A stretch of DNA of 64,000 nucleotides from Thermodesulfobacteriota bacterium (GCA_034189385.1 JAXHVD010000004.1:64001-128000), one strand, 5' to 3'. Numbered from the stretch's first letter, positions 15,001 to 21,000 are shown. Numbers are program-made.

Positions 15001-18000
15001 GAATCGAGATCGGAGACCTTCCTGTCTATCACAAGATGATGACCAGCCCTCATGTGCCTGAGCGGTACTGGTTGGCCAAGGCCCTGGGAGAGAGTCGAGA
15101 TCCCGGGACCTATGAGGACCTTGTGACGCTCCTGGATGACCCTCATCCCAATGTGGTCTCCATGGCATTCTGTGGCCTGGGGCAACGAGGAGACAAAAAG
15201 GCTGTGCGCAACATCTTGGAAAGGATTGAGACCTCAGATCACTGGTACAATCAGTGGTATGCCTATAACGCTCTTCGAGATCTTGGCTGGGAACAACGGC
15301 CCGTCGCCTCGCAGTAAATGTGAGGCCTTTGCTTAACTGTTTCGAACGTTCATTGTTGGCTTTTGGGGGACCCATCCGGCGGGGGTGAGCGGTCCGCCTT
15401 GGCGGATCAAAAAGTCCACACAACCAAGGGAGAAGGCGTTGCGCAAAGGTCTCAAGGTGTGTTTGTGTGGTCGTGGCTCATTAATACTAAAGAACACCCT
15501 AGGAGCACCCCCCAAACCAGAATCACCACAGGCATACCGTGACCATTGCCCATCCCGCCCGAGCCAGCCGCCGCAATAAAACAGGTGCCGCCACCGCCGC
15601 TGGTATCTTTCGGCAATCCCACCCCGCCGGTCTCCAAGATATACCCATTCACCATTCGGTCAGCATCGCCGTCGCCACCGTCGGTGAACTCCAAGGCAAC
15701 AGAGGTCCTGTCTCCACTGAAGGTGGCATGCTCGGAGTAGTCATACCAGCCCGTGATAGGGTCATATCTGTACCATTTTGAGCCCTTGGGAGCTGCGTCC
15801 GAGAGGTGCACGACCGCTGTGGCCGCGCCATCCTCGCTTGTGGCCTTTAACCTGAAACGAATAAGTCCAAATGGGAACCGGTCAGGCCTGTTGATCCGTT
15901 CTTCAACGTCCTCAGGATCAATTGATTCAAAATATTCCAAAAAGCTATGGGCGTCTCCAGGGCTCACACCGATGGCTTTGTCTCCTGTGACACCCAGAGC
16001 TTTCACTGCCAAGTCTCCTGCCACTTGGCCTTCTGGGGCTTCCTGCTCAGCCGGAACCCCAGTGGAGATGACACGCCAAATAGCGAGGCCGCCGATGACC
16101 CCAGTAGGTGTCTGCGTGGTCACATAGAGGGAACTGCCATCAAATGCGATGCCCTGCACATCGTGGGAGGTCGTGGCTAGCTCAGTCTTCGTGGGACCCT
16201 GAATCTGAAAAACCTTTTTTCCTGCACCAGTGGTCACATAGACAAGGTCATTATATCCGTACACGGCACCAACCAGGCCGTCTTCAAAAACGAGATAATC
16301 CAAATGGGTCATCTCGCCTGAAGCAGCATCAATAAGATGGAAATAGCCGCTGCCGCCCCACACCGATTCCCCATACACCAGGGTCGTCTCATCGCTAAAA
16401 ATGATCGGACCGTTTCCACCTTCATGGGGCTGGGGGAAACTGGCCCTTTCGATGGCAGCCGTGAACCCACTGTTGACCTGATACAGATACATGTTTCCCG
16501 GAGGAAAGTCCCCTGAGGCAAACCAGATGACGTCTGTCCAGGGATTCTGGGTAAAGGAAAAGATGCTACCCTGGGCGCCGGAAGGGAAAGAGGCTACGGA
16601 AGGCACAGAAGCCGTTAAGTCAATGCGATAGATCTTGTCCGTGTTGCCGTTGTCGTGGAAGTAGAGATAATGGTCGCGGCTAATCAGAAAACCAGAAGGG
16701 CCAAAGCCGAAATCAGGTTCCTCGCTCAGATCTAAGACCTCTTTCTTGTCCCCTGTGATGAGGTGATAGGCGTAGATTTTGCCATCATGGCCAGCGTAGA
16801 TCAACTGATGGTCATGATAGGCAAGGGCGCTGTTCCAGGCAAAGGCCGCAGGATCGGGCTCCCCCAGGTACCTGGCGCGATAGGGAGGTGTGGGCACCAC
16901 TTGAACGGCCACGTCTGGGTTCCACAGCCCATGGAAGCTGATCGCGCCATCGTCCTGTCCCCCTGAAAATGGTACCTGTGTACCGACATAAAAAGACATG
17001 CCATCAAAGGCCAGACCCTGGGCATCATCAACGGTCGTGGCTATTGGCGTCTTGGCGGTGCCCTGCACTTCATAGATGGTTTTGCCTCCACCGGAAGTGG
17101 CATAGACCACCTGGTTGTAGCCGTAGGCAGCGCTGGCCAGGCCGCCATCAAAGACTAGATAATCCTCAGCAGCCATGTCCCCTGTGATGGAATCGACCAG
17201 ATGGAAATAGCCATCACCTCCCCAGACGGACTCCCCGTAAAGGAGCGTGGTTGTTCCGTTGAAAATGATTGGGCCGCTGCCACCTTCATGGGGTTGCGGA
17301 AAGGTCGCCCGTTGGGTAGCCCTGGTAAAGGCCCGATCTACCTCGAATAGATACATGTCTCCAGGGGGAAAGTCTGCCGAGGCGAACCAGAGCACATCTG
17401 TCCAGGGGTTCTCGGCAAAGCTAAAGATGCTACCAGAGGCAGCCGTGTCAACGGTTTCAAGATCAGGAGGCCAAGTGGTCGTGAGATCAATACGGTATAT
17501 GTTCTTGGTCTTGCCGTTGTCATGGAAGTAAAGGTAGTTGTCATGGCTGAGCAAGAAGCCGGAAGGGCCAAAACCAAATTTGGGATCACTGCTCAGGTCC
17601 AGCACCTCACTAGACGTGGCATTGGTCAGATCATAGGCGTAGATCTTCTGATCGTTGGCCGGATAGATCAATTGACGCTCATAGTAGCAAATGGAGCTGT
17701 TCCAGGTGAAGGGAGTCGGATAAGGAGTTTCAAGTGGTGAGGACTGCCAAAAATCTGTGGGCGTAATAGCTGCCGATAAACTCTCTCCCAACACAAACGC
17801 AAAAGACACGGCAAAGGCCATGACCATGAATTTTTTCATGACATTACTCCCCTGCAATGAGGATTACTTCCCGCCATGTGCCGCGATAAAGGGCAAAAAA
17901 ATCCCCAGACTGACCACGTCAGCCTGGGGATGTCCCTTTTTTACCCACAAACTGCATCGCGTCCACAATCCAGCACCGTCGATTGTAACGCAATCTTCTC

Positions 18001-21000
18001 CTGCGGCAGGTCTTCTGGCTCTCGGATCACCCTACGGACCGCACCTTCCCATCCCCCTTCTGGAGAACAGTGGCATAGTTGCGGCCTTTGTCCCCGATCA
18101 CAGCGGCGGGCCCACTCCCGATTTGAACGGGATTCCCTATTAAGCCCTAACGGGCGCCACAAATTTGTACATAAACCAAAATGTCCCTAGTGTCAACTGT
18201 TGCCCAAACCGATAAGCATCGACCGCGTGCGACCGTGAGCGTCTCCTTGCTTCTACCTCATGGTGCGCCCCCTATATGAATGCTGATCCTGTGGGCCATC
18301 TTGGCATCCAAGTCTTCAAGTTCAATCCCCAAGGCGATCCTCTCCCCATTTTGATTCGTGTTTCTAACCTTTCCCTGAAAGTGCTGAATCCCCCCCATCC
18401 CCAACACTGTAAAAGAAAGCCTCACGTCATCCACCACGTAGACCTTTAAAGGCTTGAGCCCCGGGGGGACCTTGATGTTGAATTTACATCCTTCGCGACT
18501 GATGTCAGAGATCACCCCCTTCACCTCCTCCCCGTCGAATCGTGCAACAGCAGGAATGTAGCAACTTATCCTCCGACTCTTTCGCACATTGAGACTGACC
18601 ACTGTTCCGGGATAGGACAAGAAAATGAGTCGGAAGGGTTTAACAATGGAGGCCAACACTGTAGAGCGAAACTCGTACGCATTGTCCAGGCAAAAATAGC
18701 GCACCACAAACCGATTTCCCTCTTCAAAATGGCGCCCCACGTCGAAAATCAGGGGCATCTGGACAATGAGGTAGGCTGGAGGCTCCAATCCCACGAGGAT
18801 GCTTTCAAAGTGTTCTTCCATCCCTTCTATTTGAATAGATAACTCGCTTCCCAATTCAATATTGAGACGCATCCCCGCACAATTATGATTGGTTCGTTTC
18901 TCTTGGGACATCTACCTCGCACCTCCCAATATCCATCGGGCCCAACAGAGCTCACATCCGGCTAAATCCGGCCAACGCCCCTGACCCTGGAGGGCCGCTC
19001 CACGCGGCCGGGCCCTCCGACACCCCCGATGCCATCGATCGCACTTCCACCTCTGGCCGGCCGTGTGGCAGTCCGCTGGCCCATGCCGTTGACACGGCTC
19101 ATGCGTTTTCCCTGCATCTCTCCTGGCTTCTCCCGTGGGGGCTTCCAAGCAGTTGCCTCCTTGTGGGCCTTGGAAGGGTCTTTTCCCTTCTCTCCTGCAC
19201 CCCCTGAGGCCCTGCAAAACGCCTCTGTCCATCGGTGCAAAAGGGCCTTCCCTTCTTTGACAACTAAGAACGACCTCTTTTTCATGAAATCAAAGAGATG
19301 TGGTATTGTCTCCCCCACAAGGGTCTGGACAAACCGTCTTGTCTTTTCCCAGGGGCCTTTTCCAACCTTGGCCAGCCTCTCAGCTCCCCATTGAATGATG
19401 GATTTGACTGATTTCAAAATGAAATGCCCGCCCCTTTTCACCGAATCAGGCAGGGGTAAACGGGCAAGTTCCTGCTGGATGTCAGTACGTGCTCTCAGCA
19501 AAAAGGTGGTGGCAGTTTCCAGACGATTCTCTCTGGACTTACGTGCAGCCGGTTGGACCCAGGGCCATAGCTTTTGCCAGGATATCCCCTTGTGTTTGGA
19601 CATCAAATAGGATCTTACCTGGGCATAAGCGATATTGACCCTTCTGATATTCTCTTCAGCCCTTGGCCTTAGGATGGAATCATGAGAGAATCGATCAGGA
19701 TGCCAGATTTTAACTTGAGCCTTATAGGCCCGTTTGGCCTCATCAAGCGTTGCATCCGGTTTCAGTCCAAGGATTTCAAGAGACTTTTCAATATCCATGA
19801 CAGTGGGTTCCGACCTCCAGAAAGCCTTTGGGGACGGGAATCATCCCGTGCACATGGCGCGCCTATTGAGTATAGAACTTTTTGTGGTTACAATCAAGTT
19901 GCCTTTTGGGTGCCTAATCTTATATTCGGTAATAGGCATACCTTGTTTCATGAGAGGGTAACAGGGACACCCGCAAGGAGGAATAACCATGGAACTGAAC
20001 GGGAAAAAGGTGGTCATCCTGGTAGAGGAGCTCTTTAATGATCTCGAATTCTGGTACCCCTATTTCCGGCTCAAAGAGGCAGGGGCCGAGGTCATCGTTG
20101 TGGGCTCGGGAAGTGCTCAACTATTCACGGGAAAGTCCGGGTCCCAGACAAAGCCCGATGCCAGTGCTAACGAGATTTTAGGAGAGGATGTTGACGGAGT
20201 CATCATACCCGGGGGCTATGCACCCGATCACATGCGCCGGTATCCTGCCATGGTAAACCTCGTGAGAGATCTCTTTGAGGCGGGCAAGGTGGTGGCCGCC
20301 ATCTGTCATGGGGGCTGGATGCTGGCTTCAGCGAAGATCCTCAAAGGCCGCACCGTCACATCCTTTTTCTCCATCAAGGACGATCTTGTCCATGCCGGTG
20401 CAAACTTCGTGGACAAAGAGGTAGTCGTAGACGGCAAGTTGATCACCAGCCGGAAGCCGGATGATCTCCCTGCCTTTATGAAGGCCATCATGGCAGCACT
20501 TTAAAGAAAAGGGAGGCCAGGAGCATGAACTGGAATCATCCTATAACCAGAAGACAATCGTTAAAGAGACTCGCCCGCATATCGGCAGGCCTTACAGGGG
20601 TGGCCATTGGCGGGTATTCTTTTCTGTCCCCTGGAAGTGCCAAGGCGGAGACCGGAGACGGGAAATTGCTTGTCGAAGGTGTTGCCACGAAAAAGGGCTA
20701 CAAGACTAAAGAACTGATCGTGAAGATCCTTAAAGCCGCCGGCGGCATGGAACGATTTGTCTCAAGAGGAGACGTGGTCGTCATCAAGCCTAATGTCTCG
20801 TGGGCAAGATCTCCTGAACTGGCAGCGACGACAAACCCGGAGGTCATAGAAGCGGTCATTGAGCTTTGCCTGGACGCGGGAGCCAAAAAGGTCAGGATCG
20901 CCGACCACACCATTCATGATGCCCGGCGTTGTTTTGCCCTGACCGGCGTGGGAGAGGTGGCCAAGAAGACAGGGGCCGATCTTGTCTTTCCAAGGCCCGC

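What a model noticed while it worked through the whole genome (the two positions that open the first line are those of the whole stretch)
15452..18176. Cobalamin-riboswitch-controlled surface proteins with a shared C-terminal module (tandem beta-propeller g02784, g03304, [...]
Three of the five cobalamin riboswitches of this genome control genes for secreted proteins of unknown function. These proteins share a C-terminal beta-sandwich module of about 150-200 aa (NCBIfam 'choice-of-anchor U') at 36-43% identity. The first is g02784 (C34 79452-81839, -, 795 aa), with its riboswitch 149 nt upstream at 81988-82176. The second is g03304 (C56 86727-88397, +, 556 aa); it overlaps the end of a riboswitch-controlled TonB-dependent BtuB-like receptor gene, and that riboswitch is at 84306-84496. 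The third is g02690 (C32 3208-3900, -), a truncated or frameshifted copy 0.9 kb below the riboswitch at 4793-4980. g02784 is predicted to have a signal peptide, two beta-propellers, [...]
Evidence so far: Positions are from rna.tsv and genes.tsv. In blastp among the six choice-of-anchor-U proteins, the three riboswitch-linked ones are closest to each other (36-43%, against 26-30% to g01149 and g01884; call 114). tblastn shows a further out-of-frame piece of the g02690 gene. Full-length orthologues of g02784 (44-46% id) occur in three genomes of two other Desulfobacterales families. Of the 2 with upstream DNA on the contig, both have a Cobalamin riboswitch upstream (77 and 75 bits); the third is cut 178 nt upstream. 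Three more distant homologues (32-37%) have none within 1.5 kb. The AF2 model (pLDDT 79, pTM 0.74) shows two propellers (25-306, 314-590) and a sandwich (610-742). Foldseek gives o [...]
(Added by a program. Inside this text positions count along the whole contig: contig position 64,001 is position 1 of the stretch shown here. "Call 12" and the like, gene names such as g00115 and contig names such as C1 are that model's own, and its searches are not shown. The text may have been shortened before it was handed on; [...] marks where a part breaks off. The agent that wrote the report below was given it as the finding of a first reader that could run no searches.)

Follow-up and report, generated by a model that had tools for sequence, protein, structure and literature searches.

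The report
B12-switched surface propeller protein, sulfate reducers
A vitamin-B12-sensing RNA switch controls a secreted double-propeller protein whose relatives always sit in B12-import operons of marine sulfate-reducing bacteria, so it is probably a so far undescribed B12 catcher that works like, but is not related by sequence to, the BtuG protein of gut Bacteroides.

Summary
Window 15452-17839(-) encodes a 795-aa secreted protein. It has a signal peptide, two 59%-identical propeller-like repeats, a choice-of-anchor-U domain and a polyGly-Cys-Phe-Ile tail with a hydrophobic helix. A 94.8-bit cobalamin riboswitch and a 14-bp intrinsic terminator lie upstream.

The new result is on gene context. 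In 20 other genomes carrying this propeller family, 16 have a same-strand cobalamin riboswitch upstream. The other 4 are cut by contig ends, and none has enough upstream DNA without a riboswitch. The "distant homologues without riboswitch" do have one, about 3 kb upstream, ahead of btuF-D-C. The propeller gene usually shares an operon with btuFDC and/or a TonB-dependent receptor.

The shared C-terminal module is a generic display cassette. It also occurs on unrelated proteins and is missing from minimal propeller forms.

The broken third gene starts with a DUF4465 (BtuJ-type B12-binding) fragment. The g03304 family usually follows the receptor gene directly (14 of 20 sampled loci).

The family is not BtuG: there is no DUF5074 match and no lipoprotein signal. 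I read it as a B12-repressed corrinoid-capture protein, a functional analogue of BtuG. Binding and location are untested.

The parts
18191..18196 (-). possible -35 box (TTGACA) of the promoter that drives the riboswitch leader
   Evidence: Read by eye. It was not reported by the promoter scan, because no canonical -10 box follows. Low confidence.
17988..18176 (-). cobalamin riboswitch aptamer
   Evidence: Rfam RF00174, 94.8 bits (gathering score 31.5), E 2.5e-22, model positions 1-189 of 189.
17894..17931 (-). intrinsic terminator: 14-bp stem with 8 G-C pairs, 3-nt loop, then a run of seven T. Presumed expression platform (transcription OFF when B12 is bound).
   Evidence: Terminator scan. The 101-nt stretch holding it folds at -47 kcal/mol, z -5.9 against shuffles. 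The anti-terminator was not resolved.
17847..17853 (-). Shine-Dalgarno-like AGGGGAG, 7 nt before the ATG
   Evidence: Sequence read.
15452..17839 (-). g02784 coding sequence, 795 aa. Monocistronic: the next gene, 13791-15317(+), a HEAT-repeat protein, is convergent.
17771..17839 (-). Sec signal peptide (residues 1-23) with no lipobox cysteine. The mature end AITP is conserved across the family.
   Evidence: N-termini of 37 family members.
16922..17770 (-). propeller-like repeat 1 (residues 24-306)
   Evidence: 59% identical to repeat 2. Domain alignment A2. Weak internal periodicity of about 46 residues suggests about six blades. Best PDB sequence hit is a YWTD-type propeller of ROS1, E 6.4e-5.
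16052..16921 (-). propeller-like repeat 2 (residues 307-596)
   Evidence: It is sister to repeat 1 in the domain tree.
15617..15880 (-). choice-of-anchor U domain (residues 654-741)
   Evidence: NF041766, 69.2 bits against a cut-off of 32. Six-frame hit at C34 79617-79880.
15575..15598 (-). GGGG-T-C-F-I motif (residues 748-755), a putative C-terminal sorting or attachment signal
   Evidence: 32 of the 37 aligned homologues show a Cys-Phe-(Ile/Val/Leu) motif near the C-terminus, preceded by a Gly run in nearly all (counted by eye). DNA read. Not matched by NF041770 CFI_box_CTERM.
15479..15532 (-). C-terminal hydrophobic helix (residues 770-787). Here it is followed by SHDHTNTP rather than the basic cluster that most homologues carry.

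Best explanation
g02784 is a B12-repressed accessory protein of the corrinoid uptake system.

Regulation. When cobalamin is plentiful, the leader's aptamer binds it and the 14-bp terminator stops transcription. When B12 is scarce, the gene is read through.

The product. It is exported by the Sec pathway. It consists of two near-identical propeller 'heads' of about 285 residues, probably six blades each. These sit on a stalk (a choice-of-anchor U domain) and end in a polyGly-Cys-Phe-Ile tail plus a hydrophobic helix that sorts or tethers the protein to the cell envelope.

Proposed function. I propose that each propeller binds a corrinoid at or beyond the cell surface. The ligand then passes to the only riboswitch-controlled TonB-dependent receptor of this genome (C56 84664-86739) and its partner g03304, and on to BtuFCD. 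On this view the protein works like BtuG of Bacteroides but is not a member of that family.

The three riboswitch-linked proteins are different heads on one display cassette:
- a tandem propeller (g02784);
- an unnamed domain of about 230 aa (g03304);
- a DUF4465/BtuJ-type domain (the broken g02690).

Shown here: the riboswitch, the terminator, the domain layout and the operon linkage across genomes.
Inferred: corrinoid binding, surface location, hand-over to the receptor and blade number.
For: 1. Regulation. Full-length cobalamin aptamer, followed after 56 nt by a strong intrinsic terminator.

2. Conserved linkage. The family was found in 14 of 400 other genomes of the order, in 1 further genome in a 400-genome sample of the phylum, and in 5 more species in genome contigs.
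- 16 of these 20 genomes have a same-strand cobalamin riboswitch upstream.
- The other 4 are cut by contig ends 87-178 nt upstream or lie on a 1.9-kb contig.
- None with enough upstream DNA lacks a riboswitch.

3. Operon partners.
- A TonB-dependent receptor lies in the same operon in 7 loci: G147, G109, G365, G385, G625, L062 and L059.
- btuF-D-C precede the propeller gene in G185, G280, G385 and G625 by Pfam, in L058 by BLAST, and in G091 and G005 by ORF pattern only.
- In G147 a single riboswitch leads propeller, then receptor, then a g03304 orthologue at 55% identity.

4. The propeller is the conserved core.
- Minimal forms have a signal peptide, one propeller and a polyGly-Cys-Phe tail.
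- C-terminal modules vary between homologues.
- Repeats 1 and 2 of the same protein are sisters in 4 lineages, with support 94/88 to 99/98. This fits selection for more heads per molecule.

5. A sister head is a proven B12 binder type. The broken riboswitch-led gene on C32 begins with a DUF4465 fragment (45.4 bits against a cut-off of 25). DUF4465 proteins bind B12 (PMC13398666, passages read; PMC13616437, passages read).

6. Need. CbiC, CobS and CbiB were not found in this 90%-complete assembly. In contrast, 15 B12-binding-domain matches pass the cut-off.

7. Empty niche. True BtuG-family (DUF5074) genes were found only marginally, in 2 of 301 genomes of the order, and not in this genome.
Against: - No binding data and no structural model were available. 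Blade number and any ligand pocket are inferred from sequence only.
- No sequence relation to any known B12 binder was found: PDB profile searches show no BtuG, and Pfam gives only weak DUF5050 matches in 22 of 37 members.
- The C-terminal hydrophobic helix could keep the protein in the inner membrane facing the periplasm. The sorting enzyme and the fate of the Cys-Phe-Ile motif are unknown. NF041770 does not match.
- In this genome the gene stands alone, not beside a receptor.
- The family is patchy: 1 of 11 other genomes of the same genus.
- It is not confined to auxotrophs: 3 of 5 orthologue-bearing genomes tested encode CbiC.
- Kin are not independent, so the 16 loci represent fewer than 16 independent events.
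Confidence: 0.6

Rival explanations
1. Periplasmic, inner-membrane-tethered helper. After Sec export, the C-terminal helix stays in the inner membrane. The propellers hold or chaperone corrinoids between the outer-membrane receptor and BtuF/BtuCD, acting as a periplasmic reservoir.
For: - A hydrophobic helix, plus a basic cluster in most homologues, ends the protein.
- In 7 loci the gene directly follows btuC. This is Pfam- or BLAST-verified in 5 and inferred from ORF pattern in 2.
- There is no lipobox or other known outer-membrane signal.
Against: - Several proteins with the same Gly-Cys-Phe motif end 8-20 residues after it with no helix at all (g03304 and the C8, C16 and C64 proteins). The motif rather than the helix therefore looks like the signal.
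- Some homologues carry soluble Ig-like or FG-GAP ends with no helix.
- 'Choice-of-anchor' domains are, by my recollection of how NCBIfam names them, found next to alternative surface-sorting tails.
- Structural look-alikes of the g03304 head carry PEP-CTERM or type IX secretion tails (a lead only).
Confidence: 0.17
2. An exported enzyme of B12 acquisition rather than a binder. Many six-bladed propellers are hydrolases or lyases. This one could free corrinoids from carrier proteins or from dead biomass, or trim them.
For: - Invariant polar residues recur across the repeats (N108, N144, E203, H213/H501).
- Remote blade-level matches go to NHL, SGL and PQQ-type propellers, families that include enzymes.
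Against: - No match to any enzyme family reaches a curated cut-off.
- Repeated tandem duplication of the whole domain is more typical of binding modules.
- The other two riboswitch-linked heads are binding-type domains.
Confidence: 0.1
3. A B12-starvation-induced surface protein with another role, for example an adhesin that brings the cell to B12-producing neighbours. It would not bind corrinoids itself.
For: - It is a stand-alone gene in this genome.
- It has a surface-display layout shared with unrelated proteins.
- The organism comes from marine or sediment communities (record titles).
Against: In other genomes the gene lies between btuC and the receptor gene, inside transport operons. That position is hard to explain for an adhesin.
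Confidence: 0.08

Closest known systems
BtuG1/2/3 of Bacteroides thetaiotaomicron, surface B12-capturing propeller lipoproteins. Earlier notes of this scan and my recollection assign them to Pfam DUF5074 (PF16819). Sources: PMC6143338 and PMC10404256, passages read.
   Same: - Exported propeller protein.
- Expression under a cobalamin riboswitch.
- Encoded, in orthologues, next to a BtuB-like TonB-dependent receptor and btuFCD.
- Found in an organism with many B12-dependent proteins and no detected corrin synthesis.
   Different: - No sequence relation: 0 of 37 members hit PF16819, there is no six-frame hit in this genome, and no BtuG appears in PDB profile searches.
- About 285 residues and probably six blades per propeller, against seven blades in BtuG.
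- The domain is duplicated in tandem.
- Signal peptidase I signal and a C-terminal tail, instead of an N-terminal lipid anchor with an export signal.
- In this genome it is not adjacent to the receptor.
- The BtuG paper reports BtuG only in Bacteroidetes.
BtuJ1/BtuJ2 and other DUF4465 (PF14717) beta-jellyroll B12 binders (PMC13616437 and PMC13398666, passages read)
   Same: - Riboswitch-led, exported, part of a multi-protein capture relay.
- A DUF4465 fragment heads the broken sister gene g02690, which carries the same CoA-U cassette.
   Different: - g02784 itself has no DUF4465.
- The C32 copy keeps only HMM positions 4-53 of 176 and is split over at least four reading frames.
Riboswitch-led surface propellers noted earlier in this scan: type-IX-sorted BtuG-like proteins in several phyla (e1-754046, e1-911915, e1-3404648 and others) and a membrane-anchored double propeller in Dehalococcoidia (e1-3376769). 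These are AI notes and were not checked here.
   Same: A cobalamin riboswitch in front of an exported propeller protein, alone or with a TonB receptor. The anchoring device is swapped between lineages.
   Different: - By those notes the earlier cases are DUF5074 relatives or BNR/Asp-box propellers.
- This is a separate propeller family in Desulfobacterales-type genomes, with a polyGly-Cys-Phe tail and a CoA-U stalk.
SusD/SusC-type and BtuG/BtuB 'pedal-bin' lid-receptor pairs
   Same: A surface protein gene is fixed next to a TonB-dependent receptor gene. This holds best for the g03304 family: the receptor gene lies directly upstream in 14 of 20 sampled loci.
   Different: No homology to SusD or BtuG was detected.

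Membership tests
Cobalamin riboswitch (Rfam RF00174) | Covariance-model score at or above the gathering score, over the full aptamer | tested here: met
   94.8 bits against 31.5, model positions 1-189 of 189.
Cobalamin riboswitch (Rfam RF00174) | An expression platform that couples ligand binding to gene expression | tested here: inconclusive
   A strong intrinsic terminator lies between the aptamer and the start codon.
BtuG (Pfam DUF5074, PF16819) | Sequence match to the family model | tested here: not met
   - No PF16819 hit for g02784 at E up to 0.1.
- 0 of 37 family members hit it at E up to 0.01.
- No six-frame hit in the genome, while the control rings only in B. thetaiotaomicron.
BtuG (Pfam DUF5074, PF16819) | Seven-bladed beta-propeller fold | tested here: inconclusive
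BtuG (Pfam DUF5074, PF16819) | N-terminal lipoprotein signal with a Bacteroidota surface export signal | tested here: not met
   No cysteine in the signal peptide. The mature end AITP is conserved in homologues.
BtuG (Pfam DUF5074, PF16819) | Gene adjacent to btuB in a riboswitch-led B12 transport locus | tested here: met
   Met for the family: a receptor lies in the same operon in 7 loci and btuFDC in 7. Not met for g02784 itself, which is monocistronic.
BtuG (Pfam DUF5074, PF16819) | Direct high-affinity corrinoid binding | not testable with these tools
   Needs purified protein.
choice-of-anchor U (NCBIfam NF041766) | Score above the curated cut-off | tested here: met
   69.2 bits against 32, residues 654-741. 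33 of 37 family members match.
CFI-box-CTERM sorting domain (NCBIfam NF041770) | Match to the 69-position model at the C-terminus | tested here: not met
   No hit at the g02784 tail at E up to 10, and none in 37 members at E up to 1. Only the Cys-Phe-Ile motif looks alike by eye. One g03304-family protein, P0170, is named CFI-box-CTERM by its source.
DUF4465 / BtuJ (PF14717), for the sister gene g02690 | Score above the cut-off over the whole domain | tested here: inconclusive
   45.4 bits against a cut-off of 25, but only HMM positions 4-53 of 176. The gene is split over at least four frames.
BtuB (TIGR01779 / NF007926), for the receptor that g02784 would feed | Equivalog score above the cut-off | tested here: not met
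   164.7 bits against 599.7, and 128.6 against 836. It is a Plug plus barrel TonB-dependent receptor, and the only one of six in the genome led by a cobalamin riboswitch.

The most novel reading that the evidence does not exclude
A propeller family with no detectable sequence relation to BtuG has independently become a corrinoid catcher in marine sulfate reducers.

These bacteria would build a B12 relay from interchangeable heads: a tandem propeller, an unnamed receptor-partner domain of about 230 aa, and DUF4465. All are mounted on one display cassette, a choice-of-anchor U domain plus a polyGly-Cys-Phe tail.

That tail would itself be an undescribed C-terminal sorting or attachment signal.
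Probability: 0.42. Interest if true: 0.75.

Novelty: new variant of a known kind. Interest (0 to 1): 0.62.

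Why it matters
Published work describes surface capture of B12 (BtuG, BtuH, BtuJ) almost only in gut Bacteroidota, and the BtuG paper reports BtuG as confined to that phylum. This finding offers a small, well-delimited and unannotated protein family in sediment sulfate reducers. About 35 cluster representatives score at E up to 1e-30 among 1.84 billion.

The gene context of this family is as tightly tied to B12 import as that of BtuG. If the propellers bind corrinoids, they are a new class of B12-binding scaffold and a marker for cobamide scavenging in marine sediments.

The modular heads on one cassette would also show how such relays are assembled. The claim is directly testable with one recombinant protein.

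Tried and rejected
- Profile searches of PDB sequences with A1 and A2: only weak generic propeller hits (RACK1, ROS1, BamB) and no B12 binder.
- ESM Atlas for propeller 1: weak DUF4394, DUF6923 and NHL leads, and no model held.
- RNA evidence: no RNA holder listed among sequencing runs.
- Weak NCBIfam hit of g03304 to LIC_13355 (E 0.073): the Leptospira paper on that protein mentions no B12, TonB or riboswitch (passages searched). Dropped.
- Literature searches:
  - 'BtuG' plus 'Desulfo' gave 1 irrelevant paper.
  - 'cobalamin riboswitch' plus 'propeller' gave 4 papers. One is the Bacteroides review PMC13616437. For one I read passages and for the other two only the listing. None concerns this family.
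  - 'CFI-box' gave 0.
  - 'choice-of-anchor' gave 33 papers, of which the 15 listed none concern B12 by title or abstract.
- First search for related loci attempt with A2 failed for lack of a conserved stretch. It was repeated with the closer alignment A4.
- Earlier findings of this scan, by place and by sequence: nothing.
- Idea that auxotrophy goes with the family: not supported, since 3 of 5 carriers tested encode CbiC.
- Idea that the CoA-U module is the B12-specific part: rejected.

Full report
**1. What is in the sequence**

The ORF at 15452-17857(-) has an ATG at 17839 preceded by AGGGGAG, and this start gives a 795-aa protein.

Rfam finds one family in the whole 64-kb window. It is a full-length cobalamin aptamer at 17988-18176(-), scoring 94.8 bits against a gathering score of 31.5.

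Between the aptamer and the start codon lies a terminator at 17931-17901(-). It has a 14-bp stem with 8 G-C pairs, followed by seven T. The 101-nt stretch holding it folds at -47 kcal/mol, z -5.9 against shuffles. This is the usual layout of a transcriptional OFF switch. I did not resolve the anti-terminator.

The gene is monocistronic. The next gene, 13791-15317(+), is a convergent HEAT-repeat protein. The gene upstream is a PilZ/YcgR-like protein.

**2. The protein**

- The signal peptide has no cysteine and is followed by AITP.
- Two tandem repeats, residues 24-306 and 307-596, are 59% identical over 266 residues.
- The C-terminal part holds NCBIfam choice-of-anchor U at residues 654-741, 69.2 bits against a cut-off of 32.
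- Then come GGGG-T-C-F-I at residues 748-755 and a hydrophobic helix at 770-787.
- Pfam gives only sub-threshold propeller hits: OLF and DUF5050.
- A profile of 20 single repeats (A2) gives as its best solved-structure sequence hit a YWTD-type propeller of ROS1 at E 6.4e-5. No B12 binder appears.
- A self-comparison of the A2 profile shows weak repeats at offsets of about 46, 107 and 188 residues. Together with the strand pattern of the consensus, this suggests about six blades per repeat. That is an inference.

**3. The genome's B12 set**

The assembly (4.13 Mb, 64 contigs, 90% complete, 4.2% contamination) has five cobalamin riboswitches.

- Two lead btuF-D-C.
- One leads a TonB-dependent receptor whose gene overlaps g03304.
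- One leads the broken g02690.
- One is the riboswitch of this finding.

The genome has six Plug-domain receptors, and only the C56 one is riboswitch-led.

CbiC, CobS and CbiB were not found, while 15 B12-binding-domain matches pass the cut-off. The organism therefore looks like a heavy B12 user that cannot make or finish corrinoids. The limit on this is 90% completeness.

One caveat concerns contig C32 (14.3 kb). It is collinear with C56 80-97 kb.
- BtuC, BtuD, BtuF and adenine deaminase are 95, 90, 84 and 83% identical at the protein level.
- DNA identity is 83-87%, flanks included.
- C32's first bases match the end of the receptor gene.

C32 is therefore a second version of the same locus. 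It is either a duplication or a co-binned relative.

**4. The family and its context (the main result)**

The propeller part is unique in this genome.

- In the 5.8-billion-cluster collection, 67 proteins match at E up to 0.001. All come from metagenomes, and the few that are named are Thermodesulfobacteriota or Desulfobacterales.
- A profile search of 1.84 billion representatives gives 35 at E up to 1e-30. Below about 1e-26 there are only blade-level matches to generic propellers: PQQ_2/BamB, Kelch, DUF5050, NHL.
- In genome samples the family occurs in 14 of 400 other genomes of the order, including 1 of 11 other genomes of the same genus. A 400-genome sample of the phylum adds one more genome, G625.
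- A pattern scan of 185,579 species genomes returned 15 loci. All are Desulfobacteraceae, Desulfosarcinaceae, Desulfatibacillaceae or unclassified Desulfobacterales, Deltaproteobacteria or Thermodesulfobacteriota MAGs.

I then scanned the DNA upstream of each locus for riboswitches.

- Of the 20 other genomes, 16 have a cobalamin riboswitch on the same strand upstream.
- Four cannot be judged:
  - G188 is cut 178 nt upstream.
  - G144 lies on a 1.9-kb contig.
  - L058 is cut 87 nt before btuF.
  - L059 is cut 108 nt before the gene.
- No locus with enough upstream DNA lacks a riboswitch.

The operon layouts are as follows (RS = riboswitch).

| Genome or locus | Layout |
|---|---|
| G147 | RS, propeller, receptor, g03304-like |
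| G109, G365, L062 | RS, propeller, receptor (two riboswitches in L062) |
| G385, G625 | RS, btuF, btuD, btuC, propeller, receptor |
| G280 | RS, btuF, btuD/C, propeller |
| G185 | RS, btuFDC, propeller, bioA-F-D-B, second propeller gene |
| G091, G005 | as G185, by ORF pattern; bioB confirmed by Pfam in G091 |
| L058 | btuFDC, then a single propeller |

With about five riboswitches per 4-Mb genome, a chance same-strand riboswitch within 4 kb upstream would be expected at well under 1% of genes. That figure is my estimate. The loci are kin, so they are not 16 independent events.

**5. Which part does what**

The propeller is the constant part of the family.

- Minimal members of 338-374 aa are a signal peptide, one propeller and a polyGly-Cys-Phe tail.
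- Others end in FG-GAP/VCBS or Ig-like modules.
- In a tree of 20 single repeats, the two repeats of one protein are sisters in G000 (94/88), G625 (95/98), G385 (98/97) and G109 (99/98). The tandem state therefore arose repeatedly or is homogenised.

The CoA-U module is not specific to B12 genes.

- The genome has six CoA-U loci.
- Five end in a polyGly-Cys-Phe-(Ile/Val) motif, and the sixth, g02690, ends in Gly-Asp-Cys-Leu-Val.
- The three that are not riboswitch-linked carry unrelated heads: Ig/DUF1573, CBM_4_9 plus Golvesin_C, and none recognised.

The three riboswitch-linked modules are nevertheless closest to each other, at 36-42% against 27-30%. This fits exchange of the cassette among B12 genes.

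No NCBIfam sorting-signal model matches the tail, and NF041770 CFI_box_CTERM does not hit it. The genome also has exosortase genes and seven PEP-CTERM proteins, which form a separate system.

**6. The sister genes**

*g02690.* The stretch between the C32 riboswitch and the CoA-U piece holds a signal peptide, a DUF4465 fragment (45.4 bits against a cut-off of 25, HMM positions 4-53 of 176) and an Ig-like piece. Each lies in a different frame. DUF4465 is the BtuJ-type B12-binding jellyroll (PMC13398666 and PMC13616437, passages read). The same broken arrangement occurs in a contig of an independent marine-sediment run, with 10 substitutions and no gaps over 3100-4930. It is therefore not an assembly slip of one data set.

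*g03304.* Its head of about 230 residues belongs to a large family: 4738 matches among 7999 scored candidates. It occurs in 32 of 201 genomes of the order, this genome included. I sampled 20 loci in 20 of the 31 other genomes.

- A receptor gene lies directly upstream on the same strand in 14.
- A same-strand riboswitch lies upstream in 14.
- Two have none: G065, searched over 11.5 kb, and G164, searched to the contig end.
- Four are cut by contig ends.

Atlas models with the same fold (TM 0.86-0.93 by query) sit in clusters that carry PEP-CTERM, type IX tails, DUF4430 or DUF4465 (a lead only). One homologue, P0142, is fused to a BtuF-type domain.

The fixed outer-membrane pair in this order is therefore the receptor plus a g03304-type protein. 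The propeller is an extra component in a subset of genomes.

**7. Mechanism proposed**

- Shown: B12-sensing leader with terminator, export signal, two conserved propeller repeats, display cassette, and constant placement of the family in riboswitch-led B12 import operons.
- Inferred: under B12 shortage the protein is made and exported. It is tethered by its tail at the cell envelope, most likely the surface. Each propeller binds a corrinoid, and the ligand passes to the receptor/g03304 pair and then to BtuFCD.

I put 0.6 on this, about 0.9 on the weaker claim that the protein is a part of corrinoid acquisition, and the remainder on the rivals listed.

**8. Comparison with the known**

The closest working model is BtuG, the propeller lid of BtuB in Bacteroides. 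The BtuG paper reports it only from Bacteroidetes (PMC6143338, passages read).

Membership fails on the sequence model and on the lipoprotein signal. Fold and binding could not be tested.

DUF5074 itself is nearly missing from this order. It was found in 2 of 301 genomes at 28-29 bits, and the control rings only in B. thetaiotaomicron.

Earlier notes of this scan describe riboswitch-led BtuG-like propellers with type IX tails in other phyla, and a double propeller in Dehalococcoidia. I did not check them. They suggest that 'riboswitch plus exported propeller' recurs with different propeller families and anchors, and this finding adds one more.

I found no paper on this family. The searches are listed under Tried and rejected. 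Supplementary files were not consulted.

**9. Verdict**

I class it as a new variant of a known kind: a B12-capture accessory with a different propeller family, a tandem layout and a different anchoring device. Interest 0.62.

Noticed in passing
G000 contig C32 1-14313 (L006) against C56 80001-97000 (L007): C32 is a collinear second version of the C56 B12 locus. BtuC, BtuD, BtuF and adenine deaminase are 95, 90, 84 and 83% identical at the protein level, and DNA identity is 83-87% including flanks. The surface protein in the same position (C32 317-1846 against g03304) is only 51% identical. This is either a duplication or a co-binned relative. The surface protein has diverged far faster than the transporters.
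   Followed up: partly
L006 3208-4510 (-), G000 contig C32: The broken riboswitch-led gene holds a signal peptide, a DUF4465 (BtuJ-type) fragment, an Ig-like piece and a CoA-U piece, in four different frames. An independent sediment run carries the same arrangement without gaps.
   Followed up: yes
L077-L096 (20 loci of g03304-type genes in the order): The g03304 head (about 230 aa, no Pfam family) follows a TonB-dependent receptor gene directly in 14 of 20 loci and is riboswitch-led in 14 of 20. It looks like the regular outer-membrane partner of the B12 receptor in this order.
   Followed up: partly
G000: C1 301089-302159, C1 302234-305536, C8 61976-63700, C16 56951-58834, C32 317-1846, C56 86727-88397, C64 97153-97728, and window 15452-17839: Eight proteins end in a polyGly run followed by Cys-Phe-(Ile/Val). 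Most stop 8-20 residues later without a membrane helix. No NCBIfam sorting model, NF041770 included, matches. This may be an undescribed C-terminal sorting or attachment signal.
   Followed up: partly
L034 10842-15125 (G185); same ORF pattern in L035 (G091) and L036 (G005): Biotin synthesis genes (bioA, bioF, bioD, bioB by Pfam) sit inside the B12 transport operon, between two propeller genes.
   Followed up: no
L062 2672-2860 and 3307-3515 (+): Two cobalamin riboswitches in tandem (114.9 and 91.9 bits) lie ahead of an 823-aa propeller gene in a Desulfosarcina MAG.
   Followed up: no
Alignment A2, tree: Repeats 1 and 2 of the same protein are sister branches in four lineages. This implies repeated independent duplication or concerted evolution of the tandem propellers.
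   Followed up: partly
P0142 (828 aa): A g03304-type head is fused to a BtuF-type periplasmic binding domain (Peripla_BP_2), according to precomputed Pfam.
   Followed up: no
L083 2625-4760 (G059): Group II intron matches (RF02005 and RF00029) lie on the opposite strand, between a cobalamin riboswitch and a g03304-type gene.
   Followed up: no
window 33053-34522 (+): A secreted protein has a polyGly run and a long Ser/Thr-rich stretch, encoded in part by a 30-nt tandem repeat (33986-34092, 3.6 copies, 96% matches).
   Followed up: no
G000 whole genome: CbiC, CobS and CbiB were not found, while 15 B12-binding-domain matches pass the cut-off. This points to likely cobamide auxotrophy (assembly 90% complete).
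   Followed up: partly
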